Shown: positions 38,363 through 51,510 of the stretch, piece by piece
How the letters are laid out: every line of letters starts with the position of its first letter
Numbering within the stretch: the first letter of the stretch is position 1
From: an uncultured Clostridia bacterium
GTDB lineage: Bacteria; Bacillota; Clostridia; TANB77; CAG-508
Direction of reading: 5' to 3'
NCBI GenBank assembly: GCA_947588945.1
Contig: CANPZY010000001.1
Coordinates: forward strand, 17,446-81,445
DNA length: 64,000 bases
Notes under the pieces: generated by a model
Told to the model about the DNA's origin: nothing
Database searches by the model: none
The model's input: the letters and a program-made list of their open reading frames with translations, nothing else
Translations under genes and position numbers: made by a program

Positions 38363-38437
38363 TACTCCTTTCTCAAAAATACTTTACTTTAATATAAAAA
38401 TTTATTAGCTCACATTTCTTTATTTATATTTATATTT

Positions 38438-38545
38438 TTATCTTTATTCTTTATATTTCTATTTTTTGTTTTATCTTTATTTTTTATATTTCTTTTTCTA
38501 TTTTTTATCTTATCTTTATTTTTTATATTTCTTTTTCTATTTCTA
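38438..38545. repeat. AT-rich tandem repeat (about 3 units of 33-39 bp) between mraY and ftsW
   Basis: The 33-mer TTATCTTTATTTTTTATATTTCTTTTTCTATTT is identical at 38471-38503 and 38510-38542. A diverged unit starts at 38438. Confidence 0.8.
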
Positions 38546-38558
38546 TTTTATTTATATT

Positions 38559-39536
38559 CTATATTACTAATATTCCTATAACTGAGGCAATAAGTGTTAT
38601 TATGCTAAATGTTGAAACTATTTTATTTTCTTTCCATCCCATCATTTCAAAATGATGATGAATTGGAGCCATTTTAAATAATCTTTTCTTTGTTTTTTTA
38701 TAATATGCAACTTGTAATATTACAGATAATGTTTCTATAATTGGAACTATCGCAATAATAAGTAATAATAATGGTAATTTAAGAAATAGTGAAATTCCTG
38801 CAATTGCACCGCCTAAAAGTAATGATCCTGTATCTCCCATAAATATATGTGCTGGATGCAAATTAAATAACAAAAATCCTAATCCTGCCCCTATTACTAT
38901 ACATCCAAAAATTGTTGTTTCCTTTACTCCCCAAATTATTGAAATTACTGTAAGACAAGTCAAAATTATTGTTGTTATACTTGTTGATAATCCATCTATT
39001 CCATCTGTTAAATTTACTGCATTTGTTGTTCCTAGAATTACTACAATTGCAAAAGGAATATAAATCCAAACTGGCAAAGTTATATATTGTTTTATAAAAG
39101 GTATATAGATGTCTGTTCCATTTTTAAATTGAAATACTAACATTAAAACATAAATTAATGATATTAGGAAAAGTCCAATCATCTTTGTTTTTGGTTTAAT
39201 TCCATCTGTGTTTTTTAATATTACTTTTTTAAAATCATCAATAAATCCTATAATTCCAAATCCTATTGTAACAAATATCATCGGTAATAATCTTGTGGCT
39301 ATTTCTGGTTCATCTGCAGAATAATCAATATATAAAAATGCACTTAACAGTAATGTAGATATTATTAAAATAAGTCCACCCATTGTTGTTGTTCCTTTTT
39401 TTCTAAGATGGCTCTTAGGCCCATCTTCTCTTTCCGACTGTCCAACTCTTAATTTTCTTAATGTAGGTATTACTATTATTGATATGATTACACTAACTGC
39501 AAAGGATAATAGCAATATCTTTATTTGAAAGCTCAT
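38559..39536 (-). CDS. mraY: Phospho-N-acetylmuramoyl-pentapeptide transferase MraY
   Basis: 325 aa, polytopic, with NAVNLTDGIDGL and HHHFE. Confidence 0.95.
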   Translation of the reverse strand: MSFQIKILLLSFAVSVIISIIVIPTLRKLRVGQSEREDGPKSHLRKKGTTTMGGLILIISTLLLSAFLYIDYSADEPEIATRLLPMIFVTIGFGIIGFIDDFKKVILKNTDGIKPKTKMIGLFLISLIYVLMLVFQFKNGTDIYIPFIKQYITLPVWIYIPFAIVVILGTTNAVNLTDGIDGLSTSITTIILTCLTVISIIWGVKETTIFGCIVIGAGLGFLLFNLHPAHIFMGDTGSLLLGGAIAGISLFLKLPLLLLIIAIVPIIETLSVILQVAYYKKTKKRLFKMAPIHHHFEMMGWKENKIVSTFSIITLIASVIGILVI

Positions 39537-39615
39537 TAGTTTTCCCCCTTAAATTCCGGTTAGATTAATCTTAATTTTTATTTTATATATACTTTTTTAT
39601 TATTTCTATTTATTC

Positions 39616-39680
39616 ATCTTTATTTTTTTTATCTTTATTTCTTTTTATTTATCTTTATTTTCTTATATTATCTTTATTTA
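39616..39680. repeat. Short tandem ATCTTTATTT repeats between murE and mraY
   Basis: ATCTTTATTT occurs at 39616, 39631, 39651 and 39670 (period 15-20 nt). It has the same core as the arrays at 38438 and 50497. Confidence 0.7.
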
Positions 39681-41174
39681 TTTGTCTTACTTCTTTCTTC
39701 AATAATCTCATCTATTAAATCTCTTACTATTATTCTTTCATCATAAGGATTTTTCACGTGATTAATTTCTTGATAGGTTTCATGTCCTTTTCCAGCTAAA
39801 ACAATAATATCCTCTTTATTTGCCATCATTATTGCTTTTTTTATTGCTTCTGTCCTATTTACTATACATTCATATTTTCCATTTGTCTTTTTTATTCCTT
39901 CTTCAATTTGTTTAACAATAGAATCAGGATTTTCAGTACGTGGATTATCTGATGTAATTATTGAATAATTAGCAATTCTTCCAGATATTTCACCCATAAT
40001 TGGTCTTTTTCCGCGGATCTCTATCTCCTCCGCAACCAAATACAGATATAACTCTTCCTCGTGTATATGCTTTAACCGCTTGAAGAATACTTTGTAAACT
40101 CTCTGGTGAATGTGCATAATCTAACATTATCGTTAAATCTAATTTATTATCTACAAGTTCACTTCTCCCTGGAACTCTAACTTCTTCTAAAGCTGACTTT
40201 ATATTTTCTGTATCACAGCCTAATCTTTCTGCAACACATATTGCTGCTAAACTATTATACACACTAAATCTTCCTGGTATAAATGTTTTTATTCTTTCAT
40301 TTTTTCCGTTTAACTTTACTCTAAAATCAACATAAGAATTTGTGATTGTAATATCTTTTGCAAGTACATCACACTCATTATCAATTCCATAAGTTTTTAA
40401 ATCACATTCTGGAACTAATTTTGGCAATCTTAATACATTATAATCATCTATATTTATAAATCCAACTGGACACATTTTAAATAATTTTGCTTTTGAATTA
40501 AAGTAATCTTCCATATCTGGATGTTCTTTTTCACTAATATGATCTTCTGAAAAGTTTGTAAATACACCTATATTAAAGTCACATCCATCTACTCTATGTA
40601 ATTTAAGACTTTGTGATGAAACTTCCATAACAACAGCTTTACAATTTTCTTCTACCATTTTTGCAAATAAACTTTGTAATTTTATGCTATCTGGAGTTGT
40701 TCTATCACTATCTTCTAATTTTTTATCTCCAATATACGTTGCAATTGTTCCTATAAGCCCTGTTTTTATACCTTGTCTCTGTAAAATTTCTTTGATCATA
40801 AATGTCGTTGTTGTTTTTCCTTTTGTACCTGTTACTCCTATTAATTGTACTTTTCTTGATGGATTATCATAAAAGTTACAAGCACTTTTAGCCATTGCAA
40901 TTCTTGTATCCGGTGCAGATACTATCGTAACATTTTCTGGTATAATTTTTATAAAATCTTTTGCCCTATCCTCATTTAGTAAAATCGCTTTAGCCCCTGC
41001 TTTTATTGCATTTTCAATGTAGTCATGTCCATCTACTTCAAAGCCTTTTACAGCTATAAATAAATCTCCTTCCTTTATCTCTCGTGAATCACTAGCAATA
41101 TTAGGTATATCAAGTTCTAAATTTCCCTTTGCTTTTAAACCTTGCAACCCCATTAATATATTTTTTAATTCCAT
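39674..41174 (-). pseudogene. murE: UDP-N-acetylmuramoyl-tripeptide synthetase MurE, split by an apparent +1 frameshift
   Basis: ORF 39990-41174 ends ...FGCGGDRDPRKKTNYG*. ORF 39674-40117 continues RGKRPIMGEISG.... The junction reads GAT CCG CGG AAA AAG ACC (plus strand 40006-40019). Removing one A or one C restores the MurE motif GGDRDxxKRPxMG. Confidence 0.88.
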
Positions 41175-41382: not shown

Positions 41383-42657
41383 TTAGTAAATTTCTAATTG
41401 CTGTTTAAATAATTTTCCCCTGCTAGTATATATTTGTAAGTTTTTATTTTTCTTAAGAATTTGTTTTATTTTCCACAAACCTAATCCATGTGAAACTTTA
41501 TCTTTCTTACTTGAAAAGCCTTTTTGATAGATTTTTTTTACATCTATTAAATAATTTTTATATGGGTTTTCAATTATTATTAAATTACGATTATTAAATT
41601 TATCTTTTAAAAATTTTATAGTAATTATTTTTTCATCACACCCACAACTTGCTTCTATTGCATTATCAAGTAATATACCAAGCATTCTACATAAATCATA
41701 ACTAGAAACATTTAGTGAATTCAAGTCAATATATACTTGTACTCTAAGCTCTATTCCACTTTTTTCAGCTAATTTAATTTTATTATTTATTAAATTTAAT
41801 ATTGCTGGATTATTAATAATTTCACTGTTGATGCTTTGTTTATTATTAATTTGCTGACATTCTTTTGATATAGATTTATACATTTTTTCAAGGCCTTCAA
41901 TATCTTTTGCCACAATGTATCCACCTATTCCCTGCATTATGTTATTAAAATCATGTTTGAATGCTCTTACATCATCATAATTCTCTTGAAGTCTTTTATT
42001 GCTTCCCTCAAGATTTTCAATTTCTTCTATTGCACTTTCTTTACTCAAGCTTAATAAAATGCACTTTACTAAAACAGTTAAGTACGCAACAATAAAAAAG
42101 TTTATAAGTAAATAAACATATATGCTCATTTTATTAATATCATCTATTATTTTAATTCTAGCACAAGTTATAACAATAATCGAAATTAAGCTAATTACAT
42201 CAATTTTTATTTTTTCTTTTTCATTTAAGTTTTCTTTGAAATCTAACTTTAGCTTTTTAAAACTTATGATTATATATATAATTGTTTTTATTGCCAATTC
42301 AGTTAATCCAGCTAAAATAAAATTTAAGTTTACAATAATAATACTTTCAGAAACAGTTGTTATTATTAAATTAAATATTATTGATAAATAAAGCTTTTCA
42401 GATTTAAATTTTAAAATCTTATTATACAAAATCAAATCAACAACTAAATTAATAATTTTATAGCAATTAACTGGAAATAAAATTTTTGTGAATAAAGTTA
42501 ATATTCCTTGAATTATAAGTAGTTTTGTTTCATTAATTTTTTTTACATCATCTTTTAATAATTTTATTATTATCTTATTTCCTACTAAAATATTTAGAAA
42601 ATTAAGCAATAAAAATAAAGTTATATTTAATGGATTATATATTAGTTCGTTTAACAT
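41383..42657 (-). CDS. Orphan AgrC/ComD-type (HPK10) membrane histidine kinase
   Basis: 424 aa. Multi-TM N-terminus, H-box FKHDFNNIM, N-box LLDNAIEAS and G-box SHGLGLW. Confidence 0.75.
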   Translation of the reverse strand: MLNELIYNPLNITLFLLLNFLNILVGNKIIIKLLKDDVKKINETKLLIIQGILTLFTKILFPVNCYKIINLVVDLILYNKILKFKSEKLYLSIIFNLIITTVSESIIIVNLNFILAGLTELAIKTIIYIIISFKKLKLDFKENLNEKEKIKIDVISLISIIVITCARIKIIDDINKMSIYVYLLINFFIVAYLTVLVKCILLSLSKESAIEEIENLEGSNKRLQENYDDVRAFKHDFNNIMQGIGGYIVAKDIEGLEKMYKSISKECQQINNKQSINSEIINNPAILNLINNKIKLAEKSGIELRVQVYIDLNSLNVSSYDLCRMLGILLDNAIEASCGCDEKIITIKFLKDKFNNRNLIIIENPYKNYLIDVKKIYQKGFSSKKDKVSHGLGLWKIKQILKKNKNLQIYTSRGKLFKQQLEIY

Positions 42658-42744
42658 TTCTTTCTCCTTTTATTGGTAATATATTCCATATTATAACTTT
42701 ATTTTTTAAAATGCAATAGTTTTTAACAAATTTTGTTAATTTTA

Positions 42745-43536
42745 TTAAAAATATTTTCTAAAATTGTTTTCACCTTTTTCAATTAAATCATTTAATAAAT
42801 CAAGTCTTAGTGGAACTCTATCTGATTTAATTCTATTTAATATATTATTTTTATATTGAGGATATTCAAAACATAAATAATATAACTTTAAGATCTCTAA
42901 TAATACATCTGTCATTATTTTGCCTGACACCTCTTGAGTTGTATTACTATTTTTTACCTTTCTATATGTAAAAAATGGTTCATCTAAATAGTCAAAAGTT
43001 TCGCATTTACACAAACATTCTAAAATAAAATTAACATCTTCATAAGCTGTATATTCTGTATATCTAGTATTTCCTATGATATCTCTTCTATAGCACTTTG
43101 TAGGTCCTGATAAAAATTTTGTATTTTCAATTTTTTCCGCTATAGAACTTTTTTCTTCTTTCTCTATAGATATTTTTCCAAATTCATTTTTAATATATGA
43201 TAAAAATATAACATCTTGTCCCTTAGCTATATTATCTAACTTAGATAATATTTGATTATTTGAAAGAAAATCATCGCTATCTATAAATATAATATATTCT
43301 CCATTAGCATTATCAAGGCCTACGTTTCTTGCTCCTCCCGCACCTTTTCTATTTGTTTGAAAAAATTTAACAGGAAATTCTTTTATAACTTCTACACTAT
43401 TATCTGTACTGCCATCATCAATTACTATAACCTCAAGCTTTTCTTTTTGTATATCTTGATTAAATACACTTTCTAAACATTCTTTTATATAATTTCCTTT
43501 ATTATAATTAGGAATTATAATTGAAAATTTGCACAT
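42745..43536 (-). CDS. Family 2 glycosyltransferase
   Basis: FSIIIPNYNKGNYIKECLESV, DDGSTD and DSDD motifs. Confidence 0.85.
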   Translation of the reverse strand: MCKFSIIIPNYNKGNYIKECLESVFNQDIQKEKLEVIVIDDGSTDNSVEVIKEFPVKFFQTNRKGAGGARNVGLDNANGEYIIFIDSDDFLSNNQILSKLDNIAKGQDVIFLSYIKNEFGKISIEKEEKSSIAEKIENTKFLSGPTKCYRRDIIGNTRYTEYTAYEDVNFILECLCKCETFDYLDEPFFTYRKVKNSNTTQEVSGKIMTDVLLEILKLYYLCFEYPQYKNNILNRIKSDRVPLRLDLLNDLIEKGENNFRKYF

Positions 43537-43551
43537 ATCTTTATTCTCCTT

Positions 43552-44559
43552 CTATAGTATTTTTGCCCATCTTTTTAATGTTTTATCATTTGACCACGTA
43601 AAATCTTTCAAGTTATCTTTGTAAATTTGTTTATTATTAACAATTAAATCAATTTTATCTTCATAACTTTGTATATTATCTCTACTCAAAATTATTCCTG
43701 TTTTATTATCTAAAATCTGCTCATAAGCTACTTCAAAATCTGTTACAATGCAAGGAACTCCTAGAGCTTTAGCCTCTGTTAACACTAATCCCCAAGTTTC
43801 ATTATCACTTAAAAGTGCTAAATAGTCACATTTTTTTATAATATTATATGGATTATCTAAAAAACCTGTAAACACAAAGTTTTCTTTTAATTCTTCATAT
43901 TTATCTCTTATTTCTTTTTCAATATGTTCATAATAGTTCCCACCTATAATGTACCATTTAAAATTTATGTTATGTTTTTTTAATAATTTTGCTAACATTA
44001 ATTGTCTTTCAAAACCTTTTTCATAACAAACCCTTCCTACAGAAACTATATTTAATTCATCTGATAGCTCTAAATCAACGGGTTCATTTGACTTTTCTAT
44101 AATATCCTTAACGTCTATTATATTATATATAACTTTTATTTTATTTTTTATTTTACTAGCATAATCTTGTTTAAGCATTATTTTCTTGCAAGTCTCGCTT
44201 ACTGCAACAACTTCATCTACTACGTCAAAAAATAAATCATCACAAAAAATTGAATCTTCTCTATTTCCAAAATGATGAAACCACAATATAGTTTTATCTC
44301 TTTTAACTCTATCGTTAATTTCTAATGCTGTTTTATAAGGAGAACATAAAACTAATGTATCAATATTTTGTTTATAATTTTCATCAATAAAAACAACTTT
44401 AGCATATTTAGCATATTTCTCCAATAGTTCTTTATTAGATGTTTTATCTGTATATCCTATATATATTTCATAGTCTTTTAAATTTCTTACAAGACTTAAT
44501 ATTGCTATTTCTGTTCCACCAATGTAAAACATTGGTCTAAAAAACATTATTTTTTTCAT
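43552..44559 (-). CDS. GT-B (family 1/4) glycosyltransferase
   Basis: C-terminal E-x7-E-type motif ETWGLVLTEAKALGVPCI. Confidence 0.8.
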   Translation of the reverse strand: MKKIMFFRPMFYIGGTEIAILSLVRNLKDYEIYIGYTDKTSNKELLEKYAKYAKVVFIDENYKQNIDTLVLCSPYKTALEINDRVKRDKTILWFHHFGNREDSIFCDDLFFDVVDEVVAVSETCKKIMLKQDYASKIKNKIKVIYNIIDVKDIIEKSNEPVDLELSDELNIVSVGRVCYEKGFERQLMLAKLLKKHNINFKWYIIGGNYYEHIEKEIRDKYEELKENFVFTGFLDNPYNIIKKCDYLALLSDNETWGLVLTEAKALGVPCIVTDFEVAYEQILDNKTGIILSRDNIQSYEDKIDLIVNNKQIYKDNLKDFTWSNDKTLKRWAKIL

Positions 44560-44854
44560 AATTAAAATTTCCTTTTTATTTATTTTCTTTTAACATCCCC
44601 CAAAAAAGCTGTTTTTATAACATTCTTATTTACATAAATAACATTATAACATTTTTTCCAAAAAAAATAAATATTTTTTGAAAAATATTTTTTGCGACTA
44701 AACTCAAAAAAAGTCGATTTATTTTTTTATTTGTATAATTTTAAATTTTTAAGGATATACTAAAATTATAAAAATGCTATGAACAAAAAAAGTTAAAAAG
44801 CCGTTTTTTTGACAAATAGTATGTTTATAAATTTTAAAGAAAGGATTAATTAAA

Positions 44855-45970
44855 ATGAAAACTAAAACAATTTTATTTTTAATAATATTTTCTGCAATTT
44901 TGCTATTTGTTCCAAGTTTTTGTAATGCCGAAAGTAAAACTGCTAATGATGATACTACATTAAGAAATGCAATGACTCAAGGTGAAGAAGATGTAGAAAT
45001 AACTTTAGAAGGTGATATTGATTTAACTGCTCCTATTGAATTTACAAATAAAACAGTAACTATTAATGGTGGTGGACATACAATATCTACAACTAAAAAA
45101 TTAGCAGATGAATCATGGCCAAAAGTTGGAAATGCTACACTACTTACAGCTGGTACAGAAAATGCAAAATTAATTTTAAATAATGTAAAATTAGAGAATG
45201 CTCCAAAATATGGTGCACAAGCATATAACGGAGGAACTCTTGTATTAAATGGTGTAACTGTATCAGGTTGTGGATATGGTGCAATTATAACAAATGCAGG
45301 TATAGTTGAAGTTGATAGTTTAACTTTAGGAAGAAATGGAGAAAATGAAAATGTTGGTATAGAAATAGCTAAAAGTGCAAGTCTTGGAGAAGGAAAAGAA
45401 CCTAAATTAATAATGAATGGTACTCTTAATTCAGATGAAACAAAAAATGTTGTATATTTAGCAGTAAATGATAATTTAACAACATTTGACGTTGAAAATA
45501 CTGATACTACAACAGATAAAATACTTGTAAACGGAAATACTGTAGTAATTACAGACCCTGAAAATAATGTAAAATTCGTAAGTAATGAAAATTTCAAAGA
45601 AGGTTTAACATTTGAAGGTGATGAATTTGTACCAAACATTACTTTAACTATTCGTGTAATGTATAAAACAGTAGAAACACAAATAATGTCAAATAGCACT
45701 ATATCTATGGATGAACTAAATTCACTAGTAAACTTAGATGAATTAGGTTATGGTGATTATACTTTAGATGGTTTCTATTCTGATGCTGACTTTACACAAA
45801 GTTTCAATTTTGAAACTCCTCTAACTGAAGATACAATAATTTATGCAAAATTAAGTGCAAAAGCTCAAAAAGATGATACTCCAAAAACAGGTGTACAAAA
45901 TTGTGTTGGTTTAGCATTATCTATAATTGCTTTATCTTCATTAGGAATAACAGCATTAAAAAAATATTAA
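44855..45970 (+). CDS. Sortase-anchored surface protein (beta-helix-like region plus Listeria-Bacteroides repeat)
   Basis: Signal peptide ...FCNAES, G/N/T-rich repeats, a Flg_new-like YTLDGFYSDADFTQSFNFETPLTEDTIIYAKL, and a C-terminal TPKTG followed by a hydrophobic stretch and KKY. Confidence 0.8.
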   Translation: MKTKTILFLIIFSAILLFVPSFCNAESKTANDDTTLRNAMTQGEEDVEITLEGDIDLTAPIEFTNKTVTINGGGHTISTTKKLADESWPKVGNATLLTAGTENAKLILNNVKLENAPKYGAQAYNGGTLVLNGVTVSGCGYGAIITNAGIVEVDSLTLGRNGENENVGIEIAKSASLGEGKEPKLIMNGTLNSDETKNVVYLAVNDNLTTFDVENTDTTTDKILVNGNTVVITDPENNVKFVSNENFKEGLTFEGDEFVPNITLTIRVMYKTVETQIMSNSTISMDELNSLVNLDELGYGDYTLDGFYSDADFTQSFNFETPLTEDTIIYAKLSAKAQKDDTPKTGVQNCVGLALSIIALSSLGITALKKY

Positions 45971-45977
45971 TAGCAAC

Positions 45978-46023
45978 TTAACTTTGCCAATTTGATACTT
46001 TAAGTTGGCAAAGTTAAATTTTT
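45978..46023 (+). terminator. Intrinsic terminator
   Basis: 13-bp stem TTAACTTTGCCAA / TTGGCAAAGTTAA followed by a T-run. Confidence 0.7.
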
Positions 46024-46094
46024 ACATACTTAAATTGTTTTATAAAAATTGGTTATAATATAAGTTACATCTTATTTTTGAAGGGAATTTTATT

Positions 46095-46871
46095 ATGAAA
46101 AAAACACTTAAAAATGTTATTATAACAATATTAATAATTGTAATTATTATTTCAATATTATATATAATAAAATATTATTATGATTTAAATAATGCTAAAG
46201 CCCAAACTAATATATTAAATGAAATCCAACTTGATAACTTTATAATTGATGAAAATATTACTAATGCAAATGAGACTAAAAAAACAGAACGAATGCTACA
46301 ACTTGAAGAACTACAAAAGGAAAATAACGAAATAGTTGCATGGATAGAAATTGAAAATACAAATATTAATTATCCTGTACTTCAAGGAACTGATAACGAT
46401 TTTTATATGAATCATGATTACAAAAAAGAATACTCTCTTGCAGGAGCTATTTTTTTAGACAAGTCTTATTCATGGAGTAGACCTAGTAACAATTTGCTAA
46501 TATATGGTCATAACATGAAAAATGGTACAATGTTTGAAAATTTATTAAATTATAAAGATCAAAATTATTTTTTTGAACATCCAAATATAAGATTTACAAC
46601 AAATACAGAAGATTCTATATATGAAATAATCTCTGTTTTTCCTTCAAGAACATATTATAAAAACGAACAAAACGTATTTAGATATTACTTTTTTATAAAT
46701 GCAGAAAATGAAGATGAATATAATGATTTTGTTACAAATGCAAAAAAAGCGTCATTATATGATACTGGAAAAACAGCCAAATATGGTGATAGTTTAATTA
46801 CACTTTCTACTTGTGCATATCATGTTGATGATGGTAAATTCGTAGTTGTTGCAAGAAAAATTAATCAATAA
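46095..46871 (+). CDS. srtB: Class B sortase
   Basis: 258 aa with an N-terminal anchor, YGHNMKNGTMF and the catalytic TLSTC motif. Confidence 0.88.
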   Translation: MKKTLKNVIITILIIVIIISILYIIKYYYDLNNAKAQTNILNEIQLDNFIIDENITNANETKKTERMLQLEELQKENNEIVAWIEIENTNINYPVLQGTDNDFYMNHDYKKEYSLAGAIFLDKSYSWSRPSNNLLIYGHNMKNGTMFENLLNYKDQNYFFEHPNIRFTTNTEDSIYEIISVFPSRTYYKNEQNVFRYYFFINAENEDEYNDFVTNAKKASLYDTGKTAKYGDSLITLSTCAYHVDDGKFVVVARKINQ

Positions 46872-46984
46872 TTAATAAAAAAATAAGTTATAAAATTCCT
46901 ATTATATTAATAATATTTATATAAAAATAATAATTCATAAGGAGTATATTTTCGAATTTTTAAAATTCGTTTATAAATTAAAAT

Positions 46985-48781
46985 ATGATAGGAAAAAAAA
47001 GTATAAAACGAAGAATGAGAAATGCAATGCTCTTAACTCTTTTAGGGCTATGCATTTTATTATTCAGAATTGCATATATTCAATTTATTCAAGGCGGTGA
47101 GCTGAAATTAAAAGCATATCAGCAACAAACATCTGATAGAAGCGTCAATCCTCAAAGAGGAACGATTTATGATGCTACTGGGCAAAAAATTCTAGCCATA
47201 AGTAGCACAGTCGAAACAGTAACAGTAAATCCTACTACTATAGATGAAAAAGAAAAAGTGGCTCAAAAATTATCAGAATTATTTGAATTAGATTATGAAA
47301 CAGTATTAAAAAAAGTTAAAAAACATTCTTCTATTGAAACTATTGTACGTAAAGTAGATAAAGATAAAACAAATGAGCTTAGAACTTGGCTTGAAGAAAA
47401 CAATATACTTCAAGGTGTGAATATTGATGAAGATACCAAAAGATATTACCCATATAATAATCTAGCTTCTCAAGTAATCGGATTTTGTGGTAGTGATAAT
47501 CAAGGTTTATATGGAATTGAAGCAAAATACGAAGACATTTTAAAAGGCACTAAAGGTTCAATTAGTAGAATAACTGATGCCTCTGGAACTCAGATAGATG
47601 ATACATCTGAAGAATATACTGACCCAATAAATGGCGATAGCCTTGTATTAACTATTGACGCAACTATTCAAGGAATTGCAGAAAAATATTTAAAAGAAGC
47701 TTGTATTGACAATAAGTGTACAGATGGTGGAAATATAATTATAATGAATCCTCAAACTGGAGATATATTAGCTTTAGCCGGCTATCCTGACTTTAACTTA
47801 AATGATCCATTTGCCAAAGATGAAAGCTTACCAAAGGAAGAACAATCAAAACAAATGCAAGCACTTTGGAGAAATAAAGCAATTTCTGACACTTATGAAC
47901 CAGGATCTACATTTAAATTAGTCACAGCATCAAGTGCATTAGAAGAAGGTATAACAACCCCTGACAAAGAAGGTGAATTTACATGTATTGGATATATTGA
48001 TGTTGCTGGAGTAAAAATGAAATGTTGGAGATATTATAGGCCTCATGGTAGTGAAAGTTTAAGGCAAGCATTAATGAATTCGTGTAATCCAGTCTTTATT
48101 GGACTAGGTGGAAAAATTGGAGTAACTAAATATTATTCTTATCTTAGAAAATTTGGATTTTTCAAAACAACTGGTATTGATTTACCTGGAGAAGCCGGTT
48201 CAATTTTTCTTGCAGAAGATAAAGTTGGTCCTGTTGAACTTGGAACTATTGCATTTGGTCAAAGATTTGAAATAACTCCAATTCAAATGGTAACAATGCT
48301 TTCTACTATTGCAAATAAAGGAGTATATATAAAACCACACTTAGTAAAAAAAATTATAAGTAGCAGTGAATTTGATGAGAATGGAAATCCAAAAGAAACA
48401 ATAATTAATCCTGAAACTGGCGAACAAGTTATTTCAGAAGAAACATCAAAAAATGTATTAAGTATGATGCAAACAGTAGTTGAAGAAGGCACTGGAAAAA
48501 ATGCAGGTGTTGAAGGATATAATATAGGTGGAAAAACTGGTACATCAGAAGATGGCGTAAATACTGGAAAGTATGTAACTTCTTTTATCGGAGTTGCTCC
48601 TGTAGAAAATCCTCAAGTTGTTGTTTTAGTAACTTTATATAATCCAACTGGCGAAGGTGGTCACCAAGGCGGAGGTGTTGCAGCACCAGTTGGAGGGCAA
48701 ATTTTTAAAGAAGTATTAGAATATCTAAACATTCCTAAAAATGATACAACTCAAAATAGCACCAAAAATTCCAGTCAATAG
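46985..48781 (+). CDS. Class B penicillin-binding protein (FtsI/SpoVD-like)
   Basis: 598 aa. TM anchor, dimerisation domain, and SxxK (GSTFK), SxN (NSCN) and KTGT motifs. No PASTA domain seen. Confidence 0.9.
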   Translation: MIGKKSIKRRMRNAMLLTLLGLCILLFRIAYIQFIQGGELKLKAYQQQTSDRSVNPQRGTIYDATGQKILAISSTVETVTVNPTTIDEKEKVAQKLSELFELDYETVLKKVKKHSSIETIVRKVDKDKTNELRTWLEENNILQGVNIDEDTKRYYPYNNLASQVIGFCGSDNQGLYGIEAKYEDILKGTKGSISRITDASGTQIDDTSEEYTDPINGDSLVLTIDATIQGIAEKYLKEACIDNKCTDGGNIIIMNPQTGDILALAGYPDFNLNDPFAKDESLPKEEQSKQMQALWRNKAISDTYEPGSTFKLVTASSALEEGITTPDKEGEFTCIGYIDVAGVKMKCWRYYRPHGSESLRQALMNSCNPVFIGLGGKIGVTKYYSYLRKFGFFKTTGIDLPGEAGSIFLAEDKVGPVELGTIAFGQRFEITPIQMVTMLSTIANKGVYIKPHLVKKIISSSEFDENGNPKETIINPETGEQVISEETSKNVLSMMQTVVEEGTGKNAGVEGYNIGGKTGTSEDGVNTGKYVTSFIGVAPVENPQVVVLVTLYNPTGEGGHQGGGVAAPVGGQIFKEVLEYLNIPKNDTTQNSTKNSSQ

Positions 48782-48840: not shown

Positions 48841-49341
48841 TTATTCTCCTTTAAGTGTTTTTAAAAACTTTTGCCACCATGTTTCTGTTTTGTTTTCATC
48901 TACATTTGTAGCAGATTCAACATAATCCTTTTTTTGAAGATTTATATATACTTTTTGATTATTATCTAATTTTTGCATTCCTAATTTTTCTTTTGCAGCC
49001 TGTTCTATATTATTTATATTCATTCCTTGCTCAATGCTTACCTGTAATTGAGCATTTTGTTTTTGAAGATTTGCTAAACTTGCTTTCAAATTTTCTTTTT
49101 CTGAAAAACGCGAATTTATTATGGCATACCTATAACTTATTGCTAAAAATACTATAAATCCTATACCAATCTCTAGAATATGTTTAATATTTTTTCTAGT
49201 CTGAATTAACTGAGCCTTTTTTATTTTTCTTTTTAATTCTTCTCTATTATGAATTGTATTATGAGTATTTTTTCTTTTTCTATTTACATACTCTGTTTCT
49301 TCTTTTCTAGGACTAGTTTCATATTCATAGTAATTTATCAT
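48841..49341 (-). CDS. ftsL: FtsL/DivIC-like septum-formation protein
   Basis: 166 aa with a basic N-terminus, a single TM segment and a coiled coil (LKASLANLQKQNAQLQ). Located after rsmH. Confidence 0.7.
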   Translation of the reverse strand: MINYYEYETSPRKEETEYVNRKRKNTHNTIHNREELKRKIKKAQLIQTRKNIKHILEIGIGFIVFLAISYRYAIINSRFSEKENLKASLANLQKQNAQLQVSIEQGMNINNIEQAAKEKLGMQKLDNNQKVYINLQKKDYVESATNVDENKTETWWQKFLKTLKGE

Positions 49342-49368: not shown

Positions 49369-50298
49369 TTACTTTTCTTGTTTTTCAAATATTCTAAGTT
49401 TGGCACTCTTAGATCTTGAATTTATTTTTATTTCATCATCGCTTGCTTCTATTGGCTTTTTTGTTATTATTTTTCCTAAAGACTTATATCCACATACACA
49501 ATATGGTAAATCTTTTGGGCAAGTACATTTTCCTTGTGCATCTATAAATGCATCCTTAACAGCTCTATCTTCTAAAGAATGAAAAGTTATAATACAAATC
49601 CTTCCTCCATTTTTTAAACAATCAATAGAGTTTAAAACTGTATTATATAATGGCTTTATTTCATTATTAACTTCTATTCTAATTGCTTGAAATGTTCGTT
49701 TTGCAGGATGTCCATCATTTGAAAATGGTTTCGATTTTTGAACTATTTCTGCTAATCTTTTTGTTGTTGTAATTTTTTCTTTTTTTCTTTCAATGCAAAT
49801 ATTTTTTGCAATAGTCTTAGAAAATCTTTCTTCTCCATATTCAAATATTATTTTTGCTAAATCTTCTTCACTATATTCATTTACAACTTCTAATGCAGAT
49901 AACTTCTGGCTCTGATCCATTCTCATATCTAAAATATTATCACTATTGTAGCTAAATCCTCTTTCTCTTTCATCAAGCTGATATGACGAAACTCCCAAGT
50001 CTAAAAGTATACCATCAACTTTATCTATATTTAAATCAGATAATATTTTATTAATATCATCATGATTTCCATGTACTAATTTATAATTTGTATATGGCAC
50101 TAAATTTTTTTTTGCAGTTTCTATTGCGTCTTTATCTCTATCTATTCCTATAAGTAATCCCTTATCTGACAATTTTTCTATTATTTTTTTACTATGTCCT
50201 GCTCCTCCAATTGTCCCATCTACATATATTCCATCTTTTTTTATATTTAGTCCATTTATACATTCATCTAACAATACAGGAATATGTTTAAATTCCAA
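49369..50298 (-). CDS. rsmH: 16S rRNA (cytosine1402-N4)-methyltransferase RsmH
   Basis: FKHIPVLL and DGTIGGAGHS motifs. The likely start is the TTG at 50298 (RBS AAGAGGTG). The ORF track extends to 50334. Confidence 0.92.
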   Translation of the reverse strand: MEFKHIPVLLDECINGLNIKKDGIYVDGTIGGAGHSKKIIEKLSDKGLLIGIDRDKDAIETAKKNLVPYTNYKLVHGNHDDINKILSDLNIDKVDGILLDLGVSSYQLDERERGFSYNSDNILDMRMDQSQKLSALEVVNEYSEEDLAKIIFEYGEERFSKTIAKNICIERKKEKITTTKRLAEIVQKSKPFSNDGHPAKRTFQAIRIEVNNEIKPLYNTVLNSIDCLKNGGRICIITFHSLEDRAVKDAFIDAQGKCTCPKDLPYCVCGYKSLGKIITKKPIEASDDEIKINSRSKSAKLRIFEKQEK

Positions 50299-50496
50299 AT
50301 TTACACCTCTTTTATATATATTATTTAATGGCATATATCTTAATAATATATGCCATTTTCTCCTTTGTTCATTAAATTTTGTATCATTTGTAAAAATCTA
50401 TAATGTATTTAATTTATGTTTAATTATTAAGACATAATCATTTGTTAATTTACAATTAATCATTTGTAAAATAAAATTATTCCTTAGTATTATCGT

Positions 50497-50812
50497 ATTT
50501 TTATCTTCTGTTCAAATTTTTCTTTCGTAATATTTTTTTATTTTATCTTTTGAACTTTTTTCTTTTGTGAAATTTTTCTTTTCATTTTATCTTTTGTTTA
50601 AAATTTTTTACTTTATCATTTGTTCATATCTTTCTTTAGTTAAATCTTTTTTCATCTTTTCTTTGGTTAAATCTTTTTAAATTTTATCTTTTGTTCACTT
50701 TTTTCTTTTGTTTAAATTTTTTTAATTTTATCTTTTGTTCATTTTTTTCTTTTGTTTAAATCTTTTAATTTTATCTTTTGTTTATCTTTTTCTTTTGTTG
50801 AGATTTTCTTTA
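50497..50812. repeat. Tandem array of about 7-8 units of 43-44 bp in the mraZ-rsmH spacer
   Basis: The unit is ATTTTATCTTTTGTTCAyTTTTTTCTTTTGTTTAAATyTTTTTA. Unit starts lie at 50497, 50540, 50584, 50681, 50725 and 50768, with two degenerate units in between. Confidence 0.85.
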
Positions 50813-50838
50813 GTAAAATTTATATAAACTTTTTCAAG

Positions 50839-51279
50839 TTATATACTAAGCATTCCTAAGTTTGCCATGTTTTCAGCAATTTGATCTGCTGAAATATTCT
50901 CTTCGCTGTTATATTTCTTCCATTTATCTCTATCCCAGATTTCAATACGAGTCCCAACACCTGTAATTACAACTTCTTTATTTAAATCTGAATATTCTCT
51001 CAAATTTGATGAAATTAAAAATCTTCCCTGTTTATCTATTTCGCATTCCATTGCACCTGATAAGAAAAATCTTACAAAGTCTCTCGCATTTTTATTAGTT
51101 AGTGGTAATGTTTTAAGTTTTTCTTGAAAGTTGTCCCATTCTTTTTGTGAAAATCCAAATAAGCATCCATCTAATCCTTTTGTTATTATAAATTTGTCTC
51201 CTATGTCTTCTCTAATCTTAGCTGGCATTATCAATCTACCTTTTGCATCTAGAGAATGCTCATATTCGCCTATTAACAA
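50839..51279 (-). CDS. mraZ: Transcriptional regulator MraZ
   Basis: 146 aa, TTG start with a GGAGGTGA RBS. Two SpoVT-AbrB repeats ([24 protein letters not shown]). Confidence 0.92.
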
Positions 51280-51297
51280 CTTTCTTTCACCTCCTTA

Positions 51298-51324
51298 CCA
51301 CATTACACCACTTTGTTCCACTTT
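51298..51324 (-). promoter_or_regulatory. Putative MraZ operator (three direct repeats, 10-nt period)
   Basis: The minus strand reads AAAGTGG-aac-AAAGTGG-tgt-AATGTGG just upstream of the mraZ RBS. It resembles reported MraZ boxes, which are GTGG-containing direct repeats with 10-nt periodicity. Confidence 0.55.
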
Positions 51325-51510
51325 CAACTAAATTTTAATACAACAAAAAAGAAAATGCAATACTTTTATTAAAATTTTTTTGTAAATTTGCATTTTTCTT
51401 ACAAACAAAATTTACTTTTTTAATTTACTAAATTTGCATTTTCTTCTTTAATTTATATTTATATAATAATTTCTAGAAAATAATATCGTCCTATTTAAAA
51501 CCCAATATAA

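What the first reader, a model, noticed from the sequence alone, without database searches (positions are those of the whole stretch)
50497..50812. Roughly 316-bp tandem array (43-44-bp units, each with two CTTTTGTT half-sites) inserted between mraZ and rsmH
mraZ and rsmH are normally adjacent, but here they are about 540 nt apart. Most of the gap is 7-8 head-to-tail units of ATTTTATCTTTTGTTCAyTTTTTTCTTTTGTTTAAATyTTTTTA. The three promoter-distal units (50681, 50725, 50768) are nearly identical and the others are progressively diverged. Each unit holds two (A/T)TCTTTTGTT(C/T)A boxes, giving about 14-16 similarly oriented boxes. On the transcribed strand this is a purine-rich (A-R-N-like) repeat, GAACAAAAGATAAAAT / AAACAAAAGAAAAAA. 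The array could be any of several things: a protein-binding platform (MraZ itself binds direct repeats, though its predicted boxes upstream of mraZ are AAAGTGG), an internal promoter or UP-element array, an RNA-chaperone landing pad, or a hypervariable minisatellite. No spacer-like unique segments are present, so it is not a CRISPR array.
Basis: partly seen in the sequence, partly recalled or inferred. Interest (0 to 1): 0.6.

Follow-up and report, generated by a model that had tools for sequence, protein, structure and literature searches.

The report
Conserved ACAAAAGA-box RNA array after mraZ
The repeat between the cell-division genes mraZ and rsmH is a locally amplified copy of a short A-rich motif array that many gut Clostridia keep, always on the sense strand, inside their division operon; it is probably an undescribed RNA control element whose reader is unknown.

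Summary
The array is real. The mraZ-rsmH gap is 543 nt. It holds three near-identical 43-44-nt units, about four decayed units, and 16 sense-strand ACNWAWGA boxes (0.75 expected by shuffling). It is the only such cluster in the 1.4-Mb genome.

It is not a recent insertion. About 95 related uncultured gut Clostridia have a 199-794-nt A-rich spacer with 2-19 forward boxes and almost no reverse boxes. The layout is conserved: a hairpin at the mraZ stop (H1), then the boxes, then a covarying hairpin (H2), then the rsmH ribosome-binding site. A strict three-box pattern hits 278 of 401 genomes of the order. Across the class, 18 of 20 inspected arrays lie in the mra operon: before mraZ (downstream of its likely promoter and GTGG boxes), before rsmH, or before ftsL.

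Boxes diverge more slowly than the DNA between them (10.8% vs 18.5%). There is no Rfam match. Hfq and CsrA are absent from this genome and many other array-bearing genomes. The boxes are not MraZ operator sites.

Best reading: an RNA element inside the operon, either a processing/stability module or an attenuator, read by an unknown factor. The tandem amplification itself looks like lineage-specific slippage. Earlier notes of this scan describe the same element elsewhere.

The parts
50839..51279 (-). mraZ coding sequence (146 aa), first gene of the mra operon
   Evidence: ORF; 58-98% identical homologues in 39 of 41 related genomes
51298..51324 (-). Canonical MraZ operator: AAAGTGG / AAAGTGG / AATGTGG at a 10-nt period, just upstream of the mraZ RBS. 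It is distinct from the array boxes.
   Evidence: Sequence; same design as the GTGG[A/T]G repeats of B. subtilis (bioRxiv 10.1101/2022.02.09.479790); also noted in e1-3176247
50822..50846 (-). H1: weak AT-rich hairpin or inverted repeat spanning the mraZ stop (GUAUAUAACUUGAAAAAGUUUAUAU), ending in the conserved UAUAUAAAU. The first box follows at a fixed distance.
   Evidence: Predicted in most of about 90 relatives, with compensatory variants such as AACTCTTAAGAGGAGTT; present in the MFE fold of the window leader
50671..50801 (-). Three near-identical 43-44-nt tandem units. Each has two boxes: UAAACAAAAGAAAAAA and UGAACAAAAGAUAAAAU.
   Evidence: TRF period 43/44, 87% matches; D3 family 87-100% identity; unit layout
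50496..50670 (-). About four decayed units of the same array. Boxes: ACCAAAGA, ACUAAAGA, ACAAAUGA, ACAAAAGA x2, ACGAAAGA, plus two degenerate boxes.
50384..50814 (-). Whole box cluster: 16 sense-strand AC[N][A/T]A[A/T]GA boxes, including three ACAAAUGA boxes in the non-repetitive 3' part (50384-50467)
   Evidence: 16 observed vs 0.75 +/- 0.84 in shuffles; the only cluster of 3 or more boxes in the genome
50361..50368 (-). Variant last box ACAAAGGA, 3 nt upstream of H2
   Evidence: Sequence; in relatives the last box lies 4-27 nt before the H2 core
50327..50357 (-). H2: 12-bp hairpin AAUGGCAUAUAU-(7)-AUAUAUGCCAUU. It is the local form of the conserved CAGUUGG...CCAACUG hairpin and lies 28 nt before the rsmH start.
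   Evidence: One search finds the stem. On 75 sequences 94% of cells pair (14-42% when slid), 10 of 10 pairs show compensatory change, and 0 of 500 shuffles reach the observed values. RNAalifold gives the same stem. It is the dominant structure in the centroid fold.
50296..50310 (-). rsmH ribosome-binding site AGAGGUG and TTG start codon (50298-50296)
   Evidence: Sequence; homologues align from residue 1 of the TTG-start protein
49369..50298 (-). rsmH (16S rRNA m4C1402 methyltransferase) coding sequence. It is followed by an ftsL-like gene at 48841-49341.
   Evidence: ORFs; tblastn

Best explanation
The tandem array is a local, recently amplified form of a conserved cis-element of the mra (mraZ-rsmH-ftsL) operon transcript of Clostridia.

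The element is an unstructured, about 60% A stretch of RNA. It carries 2-19 copies of the box (U)ACAAAAGA(U)AAA. A hairpin at the end of the upstream gene (H1) and a covarying hairpin just before the next ribosome-binding site (H2) bracket it.

Proposed action, in the RNA: the boxes are recognition sites for a sequence-preferring single-strand RNA factor. The most economical candidate is an endonuclease of the RNase Y type, which would cut at AAAAG|A in AU-rich single strand a few nucleotides before a hairpin. Cutting would separate the message of the repressor MraZ from that of rsmH-ftsL. H1 would protect the new 3' end and H2 the new 5' end, so the repressor and the division genes would get independent levels.

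Many boxes would make the event robust or cooperative. Box number drifts by replication slippage, and in this genome slippage produced three fresh 43-44-nt double-box units.

Shown here: the array, its conservation, its strand bias, its linkage to the mra operon, constraint on the boxes, and covariation of H2.
For: - Enrichment and uniqueness: 16 boxes vs 0.75 expected. It is the only cluster in the genome, and there is no other copy by blastn or nhmmer.
- Conservation: about 95 loci have 199-794-nt gaps with 2-19 forward and 0-1 reverse boxes. The strict three-box pattern hits 278 of 401 genomes of the order, with the reversed-pattern control near zero.
- Linkage: at class level, 18 of 20 inspected arrays lie in the mra operon on the sense strand.
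- Likely transcribed: in four loci the array lies downstream of a promoter-like site (read by eye; the automated scan did not flag it) and of the GTGG MraZ boxes, so probably in the transcribed 5' UTR.
- Constraint: boxes diverge 10.8% vs 18.5% for inter-box columns.
- H2 covaries. The distance between its half-sites varies from 6 to 22 nt, which fits an RNA hairpin better than a dimeric DNA site.
- H1 recurs.
- The leader has no other stable structure (z = -1.42).
- The last box sits a few nt before H2.
- RNase Y is present over the cut-off in 37 of 38 array-bearing genomes, including this one.
- From established knowledge (not tested here): RNase Y prefers to cut after G in AU-rich single strand upstream of a hairpin, as at cggR-gapA in B. 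subtilis and saePQRS in S. aureus. FtsL is the dose-critical target of MraZ.
Against: - Co-transcription, cleavage and transcript ends are all unobserved.
- RNase Y is near-universal in Firmicutes, so its presence does not discriminate.
- RNase Y is not known to need an 8-nt motif or many copies. The invariant AC of the box is unexplained by it.
- In several families H2 looks like a true intrinsic terminator (GC stem plus U-run; L026 is flagged). That fits attenuation better than processing.
- In the window's own pair (L001 vs L031), boxes are no more conserved than spacers (0.20 vs 0.19), because unit turnover scrambles the alignment.
- H1 is weak (about -5 kcal/mol) and partly constrained by the mraZ coding end.
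Confidence: 0.5

Rival explanations
1. Transcription attenuator of the TRAP/HutP kind. An unknown oligomeric RNA-binding protein binds the repeated boxes in the nascent leader. Through the last box, which sits next to H2, it decides whether H2 forms and stops RNA polymerase before rsmH/ftsL.
For: - Repeated sense-strand boxes in a leader, followed by a hairpin just before the RBS of an essential downstream gene.
- In family f2 and in larger Clostridia, H2 is a GC-rich stem followed by a U-run (L026 flagged as terminator-like; sequences).
- The H2 covariance model also finds ordinary terminators of the same shape at gene 3' ends.
- The last box lies 3-10 nt from the base of the extended H2.
Against: - In this window H2 has no U-tract on the sense strand and is not flagged as a terminator there.
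- In most of the family the tail is CUUGUGCUAUU and pairs with upstream AUAGC, extending the hairpin.
- Boxes spread over 200-500 nt with irregular spacing, unlike the compact TRAP or HutP sites.
- No candidate protein is known, and no alternative antiterminator pairing was found.
Confidence: 0.2
2. DNA-level operator array. A transcription factor (MraZ at secondary sites, or a response regulator recognising TTnACA-like direct repeats) binds the double-stranded boxes and blocks or loops the operon.
For: - Direct repeats are typical of MraZ and OmpR/PhoB-type sites.
- The boxes with their flanks read T(T/A)(T/A)ACA, which resembles a -35 or PhoP-type hexamer (position matrix).
- The array is always in the operon that MraZ controls.
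Against: - There is no GTGG in the gap. The spacing modes of 16-17 and 22 nt are irregular, not a 10-11-nt period.
- The canonical MraZ boxes coexist next to the array in L126-L129.
- Strict sense-strand orientation is kept through three different placements.
- The array is associated with hairpins that covary and have variable half-site distance, which is an RNA signature.
Confidence: 0.1
3. Neutral A-rich minisatellite with no function. Slippage-prone low-complexity DNA happens to persist in a tolerant spacer.
For: - Unit number and order differ from the nearest species while the flanks are about 95% identical.
- The same genome has other A-rich tandem arrays in the murE-mraY and mraY-ftsW gaps. 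These are absent from most of the genus.
Against: - The box, not the unit, is conserved across an order and beyond, in non-tandem form and with variable spacers.
- Boxes evolve more slowly than spacers.
- There are almost no reverse-strand boxes.
- The H1-boxes-H2 architecture is fixed.
- This reading holds for the tandem amplification only.
Confidence: 0.07
4. Hypersensitive target for a MazF-type (ACA/UACAU-cutting) toxin endoribonuclease. Under stress the toxin would sever the division operon message.
For: - A strong MazF/PemK homologue is present in all 38 array-bearing genomes tested.
- Every box holds ACA or ACU in single-stranded context, and 53% of boxes are preceded by U.
Against: - The specificity known for Firmicute MazF is UACAU (established knowledge). 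UACAU occurs once in this gap, and at 1.3 per kb across the spacers against 22.9 boxes per kb.
- The conserved AAAGA half of the box would be unexplained.
- MazF is widespread in Firmicutes that lack arrays, so its presence is not informative.
Confidence: 0.05

Closest known systems
RNase Y operon-maturation sites (cggR-gapA of Bacillus subtilis; saePQRS of Staphylococcus aureus)
   Same: - Intercistronic site in a polycistronic mRNA whose first gene is the operon's repressor.
- AU-rich single strand with a G before the presumed cut.
- A hairpin a few nucleotides downstream.
- The expected outcome is different stabilities for the upstream and downstream messages.
   Different: Those sites are single and have no conserved 8-nt motif. 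Here 2-19 copies of a defined box are conserved across a class. No cleavage has been observed for this element.
TRAP-binding trp leader and HutP-binding hut leader of Bacillus subtilis
   Same: Many copies of a short single-stranded RNA motif in a leader, read (in those systems) by a ring-shaped protein that controls a downstream terminator hairpin.
   Different: Their motifs are 3 nt long and separated by 2-4 nt in a compact site. Here the boxes are 8-12 nt long, spaced 12-60 nt apart over hundreds of nucleotides. No cognate protein is known, and the window's H2 is not terminator-like.
mraW RNA motif (Rfam RF01746, Actinobacteria)
   Same: A conserved RNA structure placed between mraZ and mraW/rsmH. 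It sets a precedent for RNA-level control at this junction.
   Different: There is no sequence or structure match: cmscan finds nothing at E up to 10. That motif is a single hairpin without a repeat array and occurs in a different phylum.
MraZ-binding repeats of the mra promoter
   Same: Direct repeats in the same operon, and the only known repeat-reading regulator of this operon.
   Different: MraZ repeats are GTGG-containing boxes, 3-4 copies at a strict 10-nt period, at the promoter, on double-stranded DNA. The array boxes lack GTGG, are irregularly spaced, and coexist with the true MraZ boxes.
UpsM, the extended 5' leader of the dcw cluster in Rhodobacter sphaeroides (PMC5089854)
   Same: A long non-coding RNA segment attached to the dcw/mra operon, reported by title and abstract as a leader featuring a small RNA.
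   Different: Alphaproteobacterial, upstream of mraZ only, and not described in the title or abstract as a repeated-box array. I did not read the paper beyond the listing.
CsrB/RsmZ and CrcZ-type multi-site protein sponges
   Same: Many copies of a short motif presented in single-stranded RNA.
   Different: Those are stand-alone small RNAs with GGA or A-rich Hfq motifs. CsrA and Hfq are absent from this genome and from many array-bearing genomes, and this array is part of an mRNA.

Membership tests
MraZ-binding repeats (operator) | Boxes contain GTGG (GTGG[A/T]G, AAAGTG[T/G], TGGGN) | tested here: not met
   No GTGG anywhere in the 543-nt gap. The box consensus is ACAAAAGA.
MraZ-binding repeats (operator) | 3-4 direct repeats at a strict 10-nt period at the mra promoter | tested here: not met
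   Box spacing is 16-61 nt in the window, with modes of 22, 17 and 16 nt across species. The array lies downstream of mraZ. The true operator, with a 10-nt period, is at 51298-51324.
mraW RNA motif (RF01746) or any Rfam family | Match to the covariance model | tested here: not met
   No Rfam hit at gathering score in the window. No relevant hit at E up to 10 on 50200-51400. None at E up to 0.1 on five distant arrays.
Hfq-binding A-rich (ARN)n platform | Organism encodes Hfq | tested here: not met
   PF17209 is absent from G000 and from 20 other array-bearing genomes (17 of 38 positive). The control genomes ring correctly.
CsrA sponge or CsrA-regulated leader | GGA motifs and a CsrA gene | tested here: not met
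   Two GGA in 543 nt. PF02599 is absent from G000 and from 24 other array-bearing genomes.
TRAP/HutP-type attenuation leader | Repeated single-strand motif on the sense strand of a leader | tested here: met
TRAP/HutP-type attenuation leader | Intrinsic terminator immediately downstream of the repeats | tested here: inconclusive
   The window's H2 is not terminator-like on the sense strand. In family f2, H2 is flagged as terminator-like (L026). Larger Clostridia have a GC stem plus U-run by eye.
TRAP/HutP-type attenuation leader | Cognate oligomeric RNA-binding protein | not testable with these tools
   No candidate identified. A pull-down or genetics is needed.
RNase Y operon-maturation site | Intercistronic position in an operon mRNA, with an AU-rich single strand containing G | tested here: met
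   Position. The array is 66% A and 18% U with isolated G. It is unstructured in the centroid fold.
RNase Y operon-maturation site | Stable hairpin a few nucleotides downstream of the site | tested here: met
   The last box lies 4-27 nt before the H2 core in most loci and 3 nt before it in the window (ACAAAGGA).
RNase Y operon-maturation site | RNase Y encoded | tested here: met
   TIGR03319 is over the cut-off in 37 of 38 genomes, including G000. This is not discriminating.
RNase Y operon-maturation site | Observed RNase Y-dependent 5'-monophosphate ends | not testable with these tools
Neutral minisatellite / VNTR | Head-to-tail units whose number varies between close relatives | tested here: met
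Neutral minisatellite / VNTR | No conservation of content beyond close relatives | tested here: not met
   The box is conserved across the order and class and is slower-evolving than the spacers.
Dispersed repeat / MITE / REP element | Multiple copies scattered in the genome | tested here: not met
   There is a single locus by blastn, nhmmer and cluster scans.

The most novel reading that the evidence does not exclude
Clostridia may have an undescribed post-transcriptional control system for cell division. An unknown sequence-specific single-strand RNA-binding protein or nuclease would read multivalent (U)ACAAAAGA arrays embedded in the mra operon message, before mraZ, rsmH or ftsL depending on lineage. 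It would set how much FtsL/RsmH is made relative to the repressor MraZ. Array copy number, which changes by slippage as in this window, would act as an evolvable gain control.
Probability: 0.35. Interest if true: 0.85.

Novelty: new variant of a known kind. Interest (0 to 1): 0.6.

Why it matters
The mra/dcw operon is essential, and FtsL dosage sets when cells divide. Outside MraZ repression, its control in Firmicutes is poorly understood.

This element is conserved and motif-defined. It sits inside that operon in a large share of Clostridia, including abundant uncultured gut lineages. It is absent from Rfam, and I found no paper describing it.

The question is directly testable:
- The box is short and defined.
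- Natural alleles differ in copy number.
- The same architecture occurs in three operon positions.

For this window specifically, the finding adds one more instance. It also gives a clear case in which a conserved box cluster has been overlaid by a fresh tandem amplification.

Tried and rejected
- Coding repeat: rejected. The period is not a multiple of 3, there are stops in all frames, and the longest open stretch is 37 codons.
- Dispersed repeat or MITE: rejected, single locus.
- Known RNA family: none found.
- Sigma-70 promoter array: at chance level.
- MraZ operator: motif and period do not fit.
- Hfq or CsrA platform: the genes are absent.
- MazF target: UACAU is not enriched.
- H2 as a regulon-wide motif: the covariance model gives essentially one strong locus per genome. 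The five second-locus hits I inspected are terminator-like hairpins just after a stop codon; a sixth fetched locus (L116) looked the same but is not GTTGG-type.
- Second-locus box clusters in two class-level genomes (L139, L141): 3-4 boxes, not mra-linked, context unclear, left open.
- Literature search for the motif string and for mraZ/mraW RNA elements: nothing on this array. One search failed on syntax.
- The simple promoter scan on L127 did not flag the promoter I read by eye (TTGCAT-17-TATTAT), so that promoter call is my own reading.

Full report
**Observation.** The genes lie on the minus strand: mraZ at 51279-50839, rsmH at 50298-49369 (TTG start behind the RBS AGAGGTG), and an ftsL-like gene at 49341-48841. 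The gap runs 543 nt from the mraZ stop to the rsmH start. Tandem Repeats Finder reports period 43/44 with 3.6-3.8 copies at 87% matches over 50644-50807, and weaker long-period rows reach 50516-50812. The repeat finder confirms a 31-nt core at three positions with 87-100% identity. On the transcript there are three clean double-box units next to mraZ. About four decayed units follow toward rsmH. The relaxed box AC[N][A/T]A[A/T]GA occurs 16 times, all on the sense strand. 2000 dinucleotide-preserving shuffles of the gap give 0.75 +/- 0.84. The fresh units are at the 5' end of the spacer. '7-8 units' includes strongly decayed copies.

**It is not a dispersed repeat and not coding.** blastn and nhmmer of the array against the 1.40-Mb, 26.5% GC genome find only the array itself. 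Box-cluster scans find one cluster in the whole genome. No sense frame stays open for more than 37 codons. No Rfam family matches, including the actinobacterial mraW motif.

**The long spacer is ancestral, not an insertion.** In 22 genomes of the same genus the mraZ-rsmH gap is 199-794 nt, 45-59% A on the sense strand, and filled with the same box in non-tandem arrangement. Eighty further loci come from uncultured gut Clostridia. Their record titles include rabbit 'Lapin' MAGs, Clostridium sp. CAG:793, CAG:571, CAG:354 and Candidatus Merdicola. They show the same thing: 2-19 forward boxes and 0-1 reverse boxes. The most frequent 8-mer across the spacers is ACAAAAGA. The extended consensus is T-W-W-ACAAAAGA-W-AAA. 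Spacing is irregular, with modes of 22, 17 and 16 nt. A strict pattern of three perfect boxes hits 278 of 401 genomes of the order. In almost every genome all hits lie on one strand, and the listed places overlap at one locus. The reversed-pattern control is almost empty.

**Architecture.** Three features recur.
- H1: an AT-rich hairpin spanning the mraZ stop, ending in UAUAUAAAU. The first box follows at a fixed distance.
- The box array.
- H2: a hairpin with conserved base CAGUUGG/CCAACUG and a variable top, often nested in AUAGC...GCUAU. It lies 20-90 nt before the rsmH RBS.

On an alignment of 75 distinct H2 sequences, 94% of cells pair, against 14-42% when the partner column is slid. All 10 pairs show compensatory changes, and none of 500 shuffles reaches the observed values. 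RNAalifold predicts the same stem. The window's H2 (50327-50357, AAUGGCAUAUAU/AUAUAUGCCAUU) carries two compensatory pairs relative to the GUUGGC/GCCAAC consensus. The distance between the conserved half-sites varies from 6 to 22 nt, which fits an RNA hairpin better than a dimeric DNA site. Folding the whole leader gives no significant global structure (z = -1.42). Only H1 and H2 are stable, and the array is open in the centroid.

**Wider distribution and the argument for RNA.** At class level the strict pattern hits 49 of 401 genomes. A few of these hits are coding repeats. I fetched 26 loci from those hits. Of the 20 fetched, 18 lie in the mra operon on the sense strand. Most sit between rsmH and ftsL, where the mraZ-rsmH gap is only about 40 nt. 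Family f2 of the window's own order has this layout too. In four loci of two other families the array lies in the 5' leader of mraZ. There it is downstream of a promoter that I read by eye and of four GTGG boxes at a 10-nt period, and upstream of the mraZ RBS. The simple promoter scan did not flag that promoter. So the array occupies any of three positions, always inside what is most simply the operon transcript, always in sense orientation, and with the same hairpin-boxes-hairpin layout. In alignable species pairs, box columns diverge 10.8% against 18.5% for inter-box columns. The pairs are not independent, but the direction is the same in most of them.

**What it is not.**
- MraZ operator. 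Known MraZ sites are GTGG-type boxes at a 10-nt period on promoter DNA. The gap has no GTGG. The true operator sits at 51298-51324.
- Promoter array. Promoter-like sites are at chance level.
- Hfq platform. Hfq is absent from this genome and 20 other array-bearing genomes.
- CsrA sponge. CsrA is absent from this genome and 24 others.
- RNase Y (37 of 38 genomes) and a MazF/PemK homologue (38 of 38) are present throughout. Both are widespread in Firmicutes, so they do not discriminate. The UACAU site known for Firmicute MazF is not enriched.

**The tandem overlay.** The nearest species (L031; MraZ 98% identical, RsmH 94%) has flanks about 95% identical. Its array is rearranged, with 19 boxes and different unit boundaries. 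The same dcw cluster in this window carries two more A-rich tandem arrays, in the murE-mraY gap (39577-39683) and the mraY-ftsW gap (38421-38565). In most of the genus those gaps are only 25-50 nt, and one relative has unrelated expansions. So this lineage tends to grow A-rich repeats in dcw spacers. The 43-44-nt amplification in the finding is best read as slippage acting on a conserved, functional box cluster.

**Mechanism.** I favour an RNA-level module inside the operon (confidence about 0.5 for the general reading). Two specific versions remain open.

1. Processing and differential stability. The boxes offer AAAAG|A in open AU-rich RNA. The last box lies a few nucleotides before H2. H1 is followed by A-rich rather than U-rich sequence, as expected for a 3'-protective hairpin and not a terminator. 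This matches what is known of RNase Y maturation sites, which also separate a repressor cistron from downstream genes (cggR-gapA). That comparison rests on established knowledge and was not tested here.

2. Attenuation. In several families H2 is a GC-rich stem with a U-run directly before essential ftsL. The H2 covariance model also picks up terminator-like hairpins of the same shape at the ends of other genes. In this window, however, H2 has no U-tract.

Neither version explains the invariant AC of the box or the need for many copies. I therefore expect a dedicated, still unknown reader.

**Comparison and novelty.** The closest known things are RNase Y maturation sites, the TRAP/HutP multi-site leaders, the mraW motif of Actinobacteria, and the UpsM leader of Rhodobacter. 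The element fails or cannot complete the membership test for each. It is not in Rfam 15, and my literature searches found nothing on it. Earlier notes of this scan describe the same array in at least 31 other genomes and reach similar conclusions. I saw those notes only after searches had established the conservation independently. This report adds:
- the three-position rule;
- exclusion of Hfq and CsrA by phyletic absence;
- the box-versus-spacer divergence;
- the H2 pair statistics;
- separation of the conserved cluster from the local tandem amplification.

**Limits.** Family and order labels are anonymous handles. My guess that the clade corresponds to the GTDB TANB77/CAG-508 group is from memory and was not tested.

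Noticed in passing
window 39577-39683 and 38421-38565 (minus strand): Two further A-rich tandem arrays (units like AAUAAAGAUAAA) fill the murE-mraY gap (140 nt) and the mraY-ftsW gap (199 nt). In most genomes of the genus these gaps are only 25-50 nt, and one relative (L145) has unrelated expansions of 236 and 317 nt. They therefore look like lineage-specific minisatellites rather than conserved elements.
   Followed up: yes
window 50321-50356 (minus strand): An 11-codon mini-ORF (MAYIIKIYAIK) with a strong AAGGAG site coincides with hairpin H2. It is shared with the nearest species (L031) but not with other relatives, so it is probably incidental. The ATG at 50334 that opens the long rsmH ORF lies in the 3' arm of H2. 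The real start is more likely the TTG at 50298.
   Followed up: partly
window 39990-40117: murE is split into two overlapping ORFs (41174-39990 and 40117-39674). This suggests a frameshift or an assembly error in an essential gene. Note e1-3176242 reports the same.
   Followed up: no
window 41383-48781: The dcw cluster is interrupted. After ftsL, the division PBP gene (46985-48781) lies on the opposite strand, convergent with ftsL. About 5 kb of other genes (sortase, a surface protein, an AgrC-like kinase) separate it from murE. Note e1-3176243 reports the same.
   Followed up: no
window 51383-51450: There are three copies of a 22-nt unit (TAAATTTGCATTTTCTTATTTAC on the plus strand) upstream of the mraZ operator. 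They may be a further regulatory site or part of the promoter region of the mra operon.
   Followed up: no
L126-L129 (G611, G759, G504, G712): In two other Clostridia families the ACAAAAGA array sits in the mraZ 5' leader, directly after four GTGG MraZ boxes. Small GC hairpins lie between some of the boxes (for example CCCUUCGGGG).
   Followed up: partly
L134 (G472:C10, about 2518-2593 of the locus): A four-box cluster falls inside the stretch covered by the rsmH tblastn match. That match is about 130 nt longer than usual, so this could be an array-like insertion in or beside the gene. I did not examine it.
   Followed up: no
L139 (G667:C19) and L141 (G626:C94): Small clusters of 3-4 boxes lie outside the mra operon. 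One is in the 5' leader of a small ORF behind a consensus-like promoter. They could be chance or minor extra targets.
   Followed up: partly
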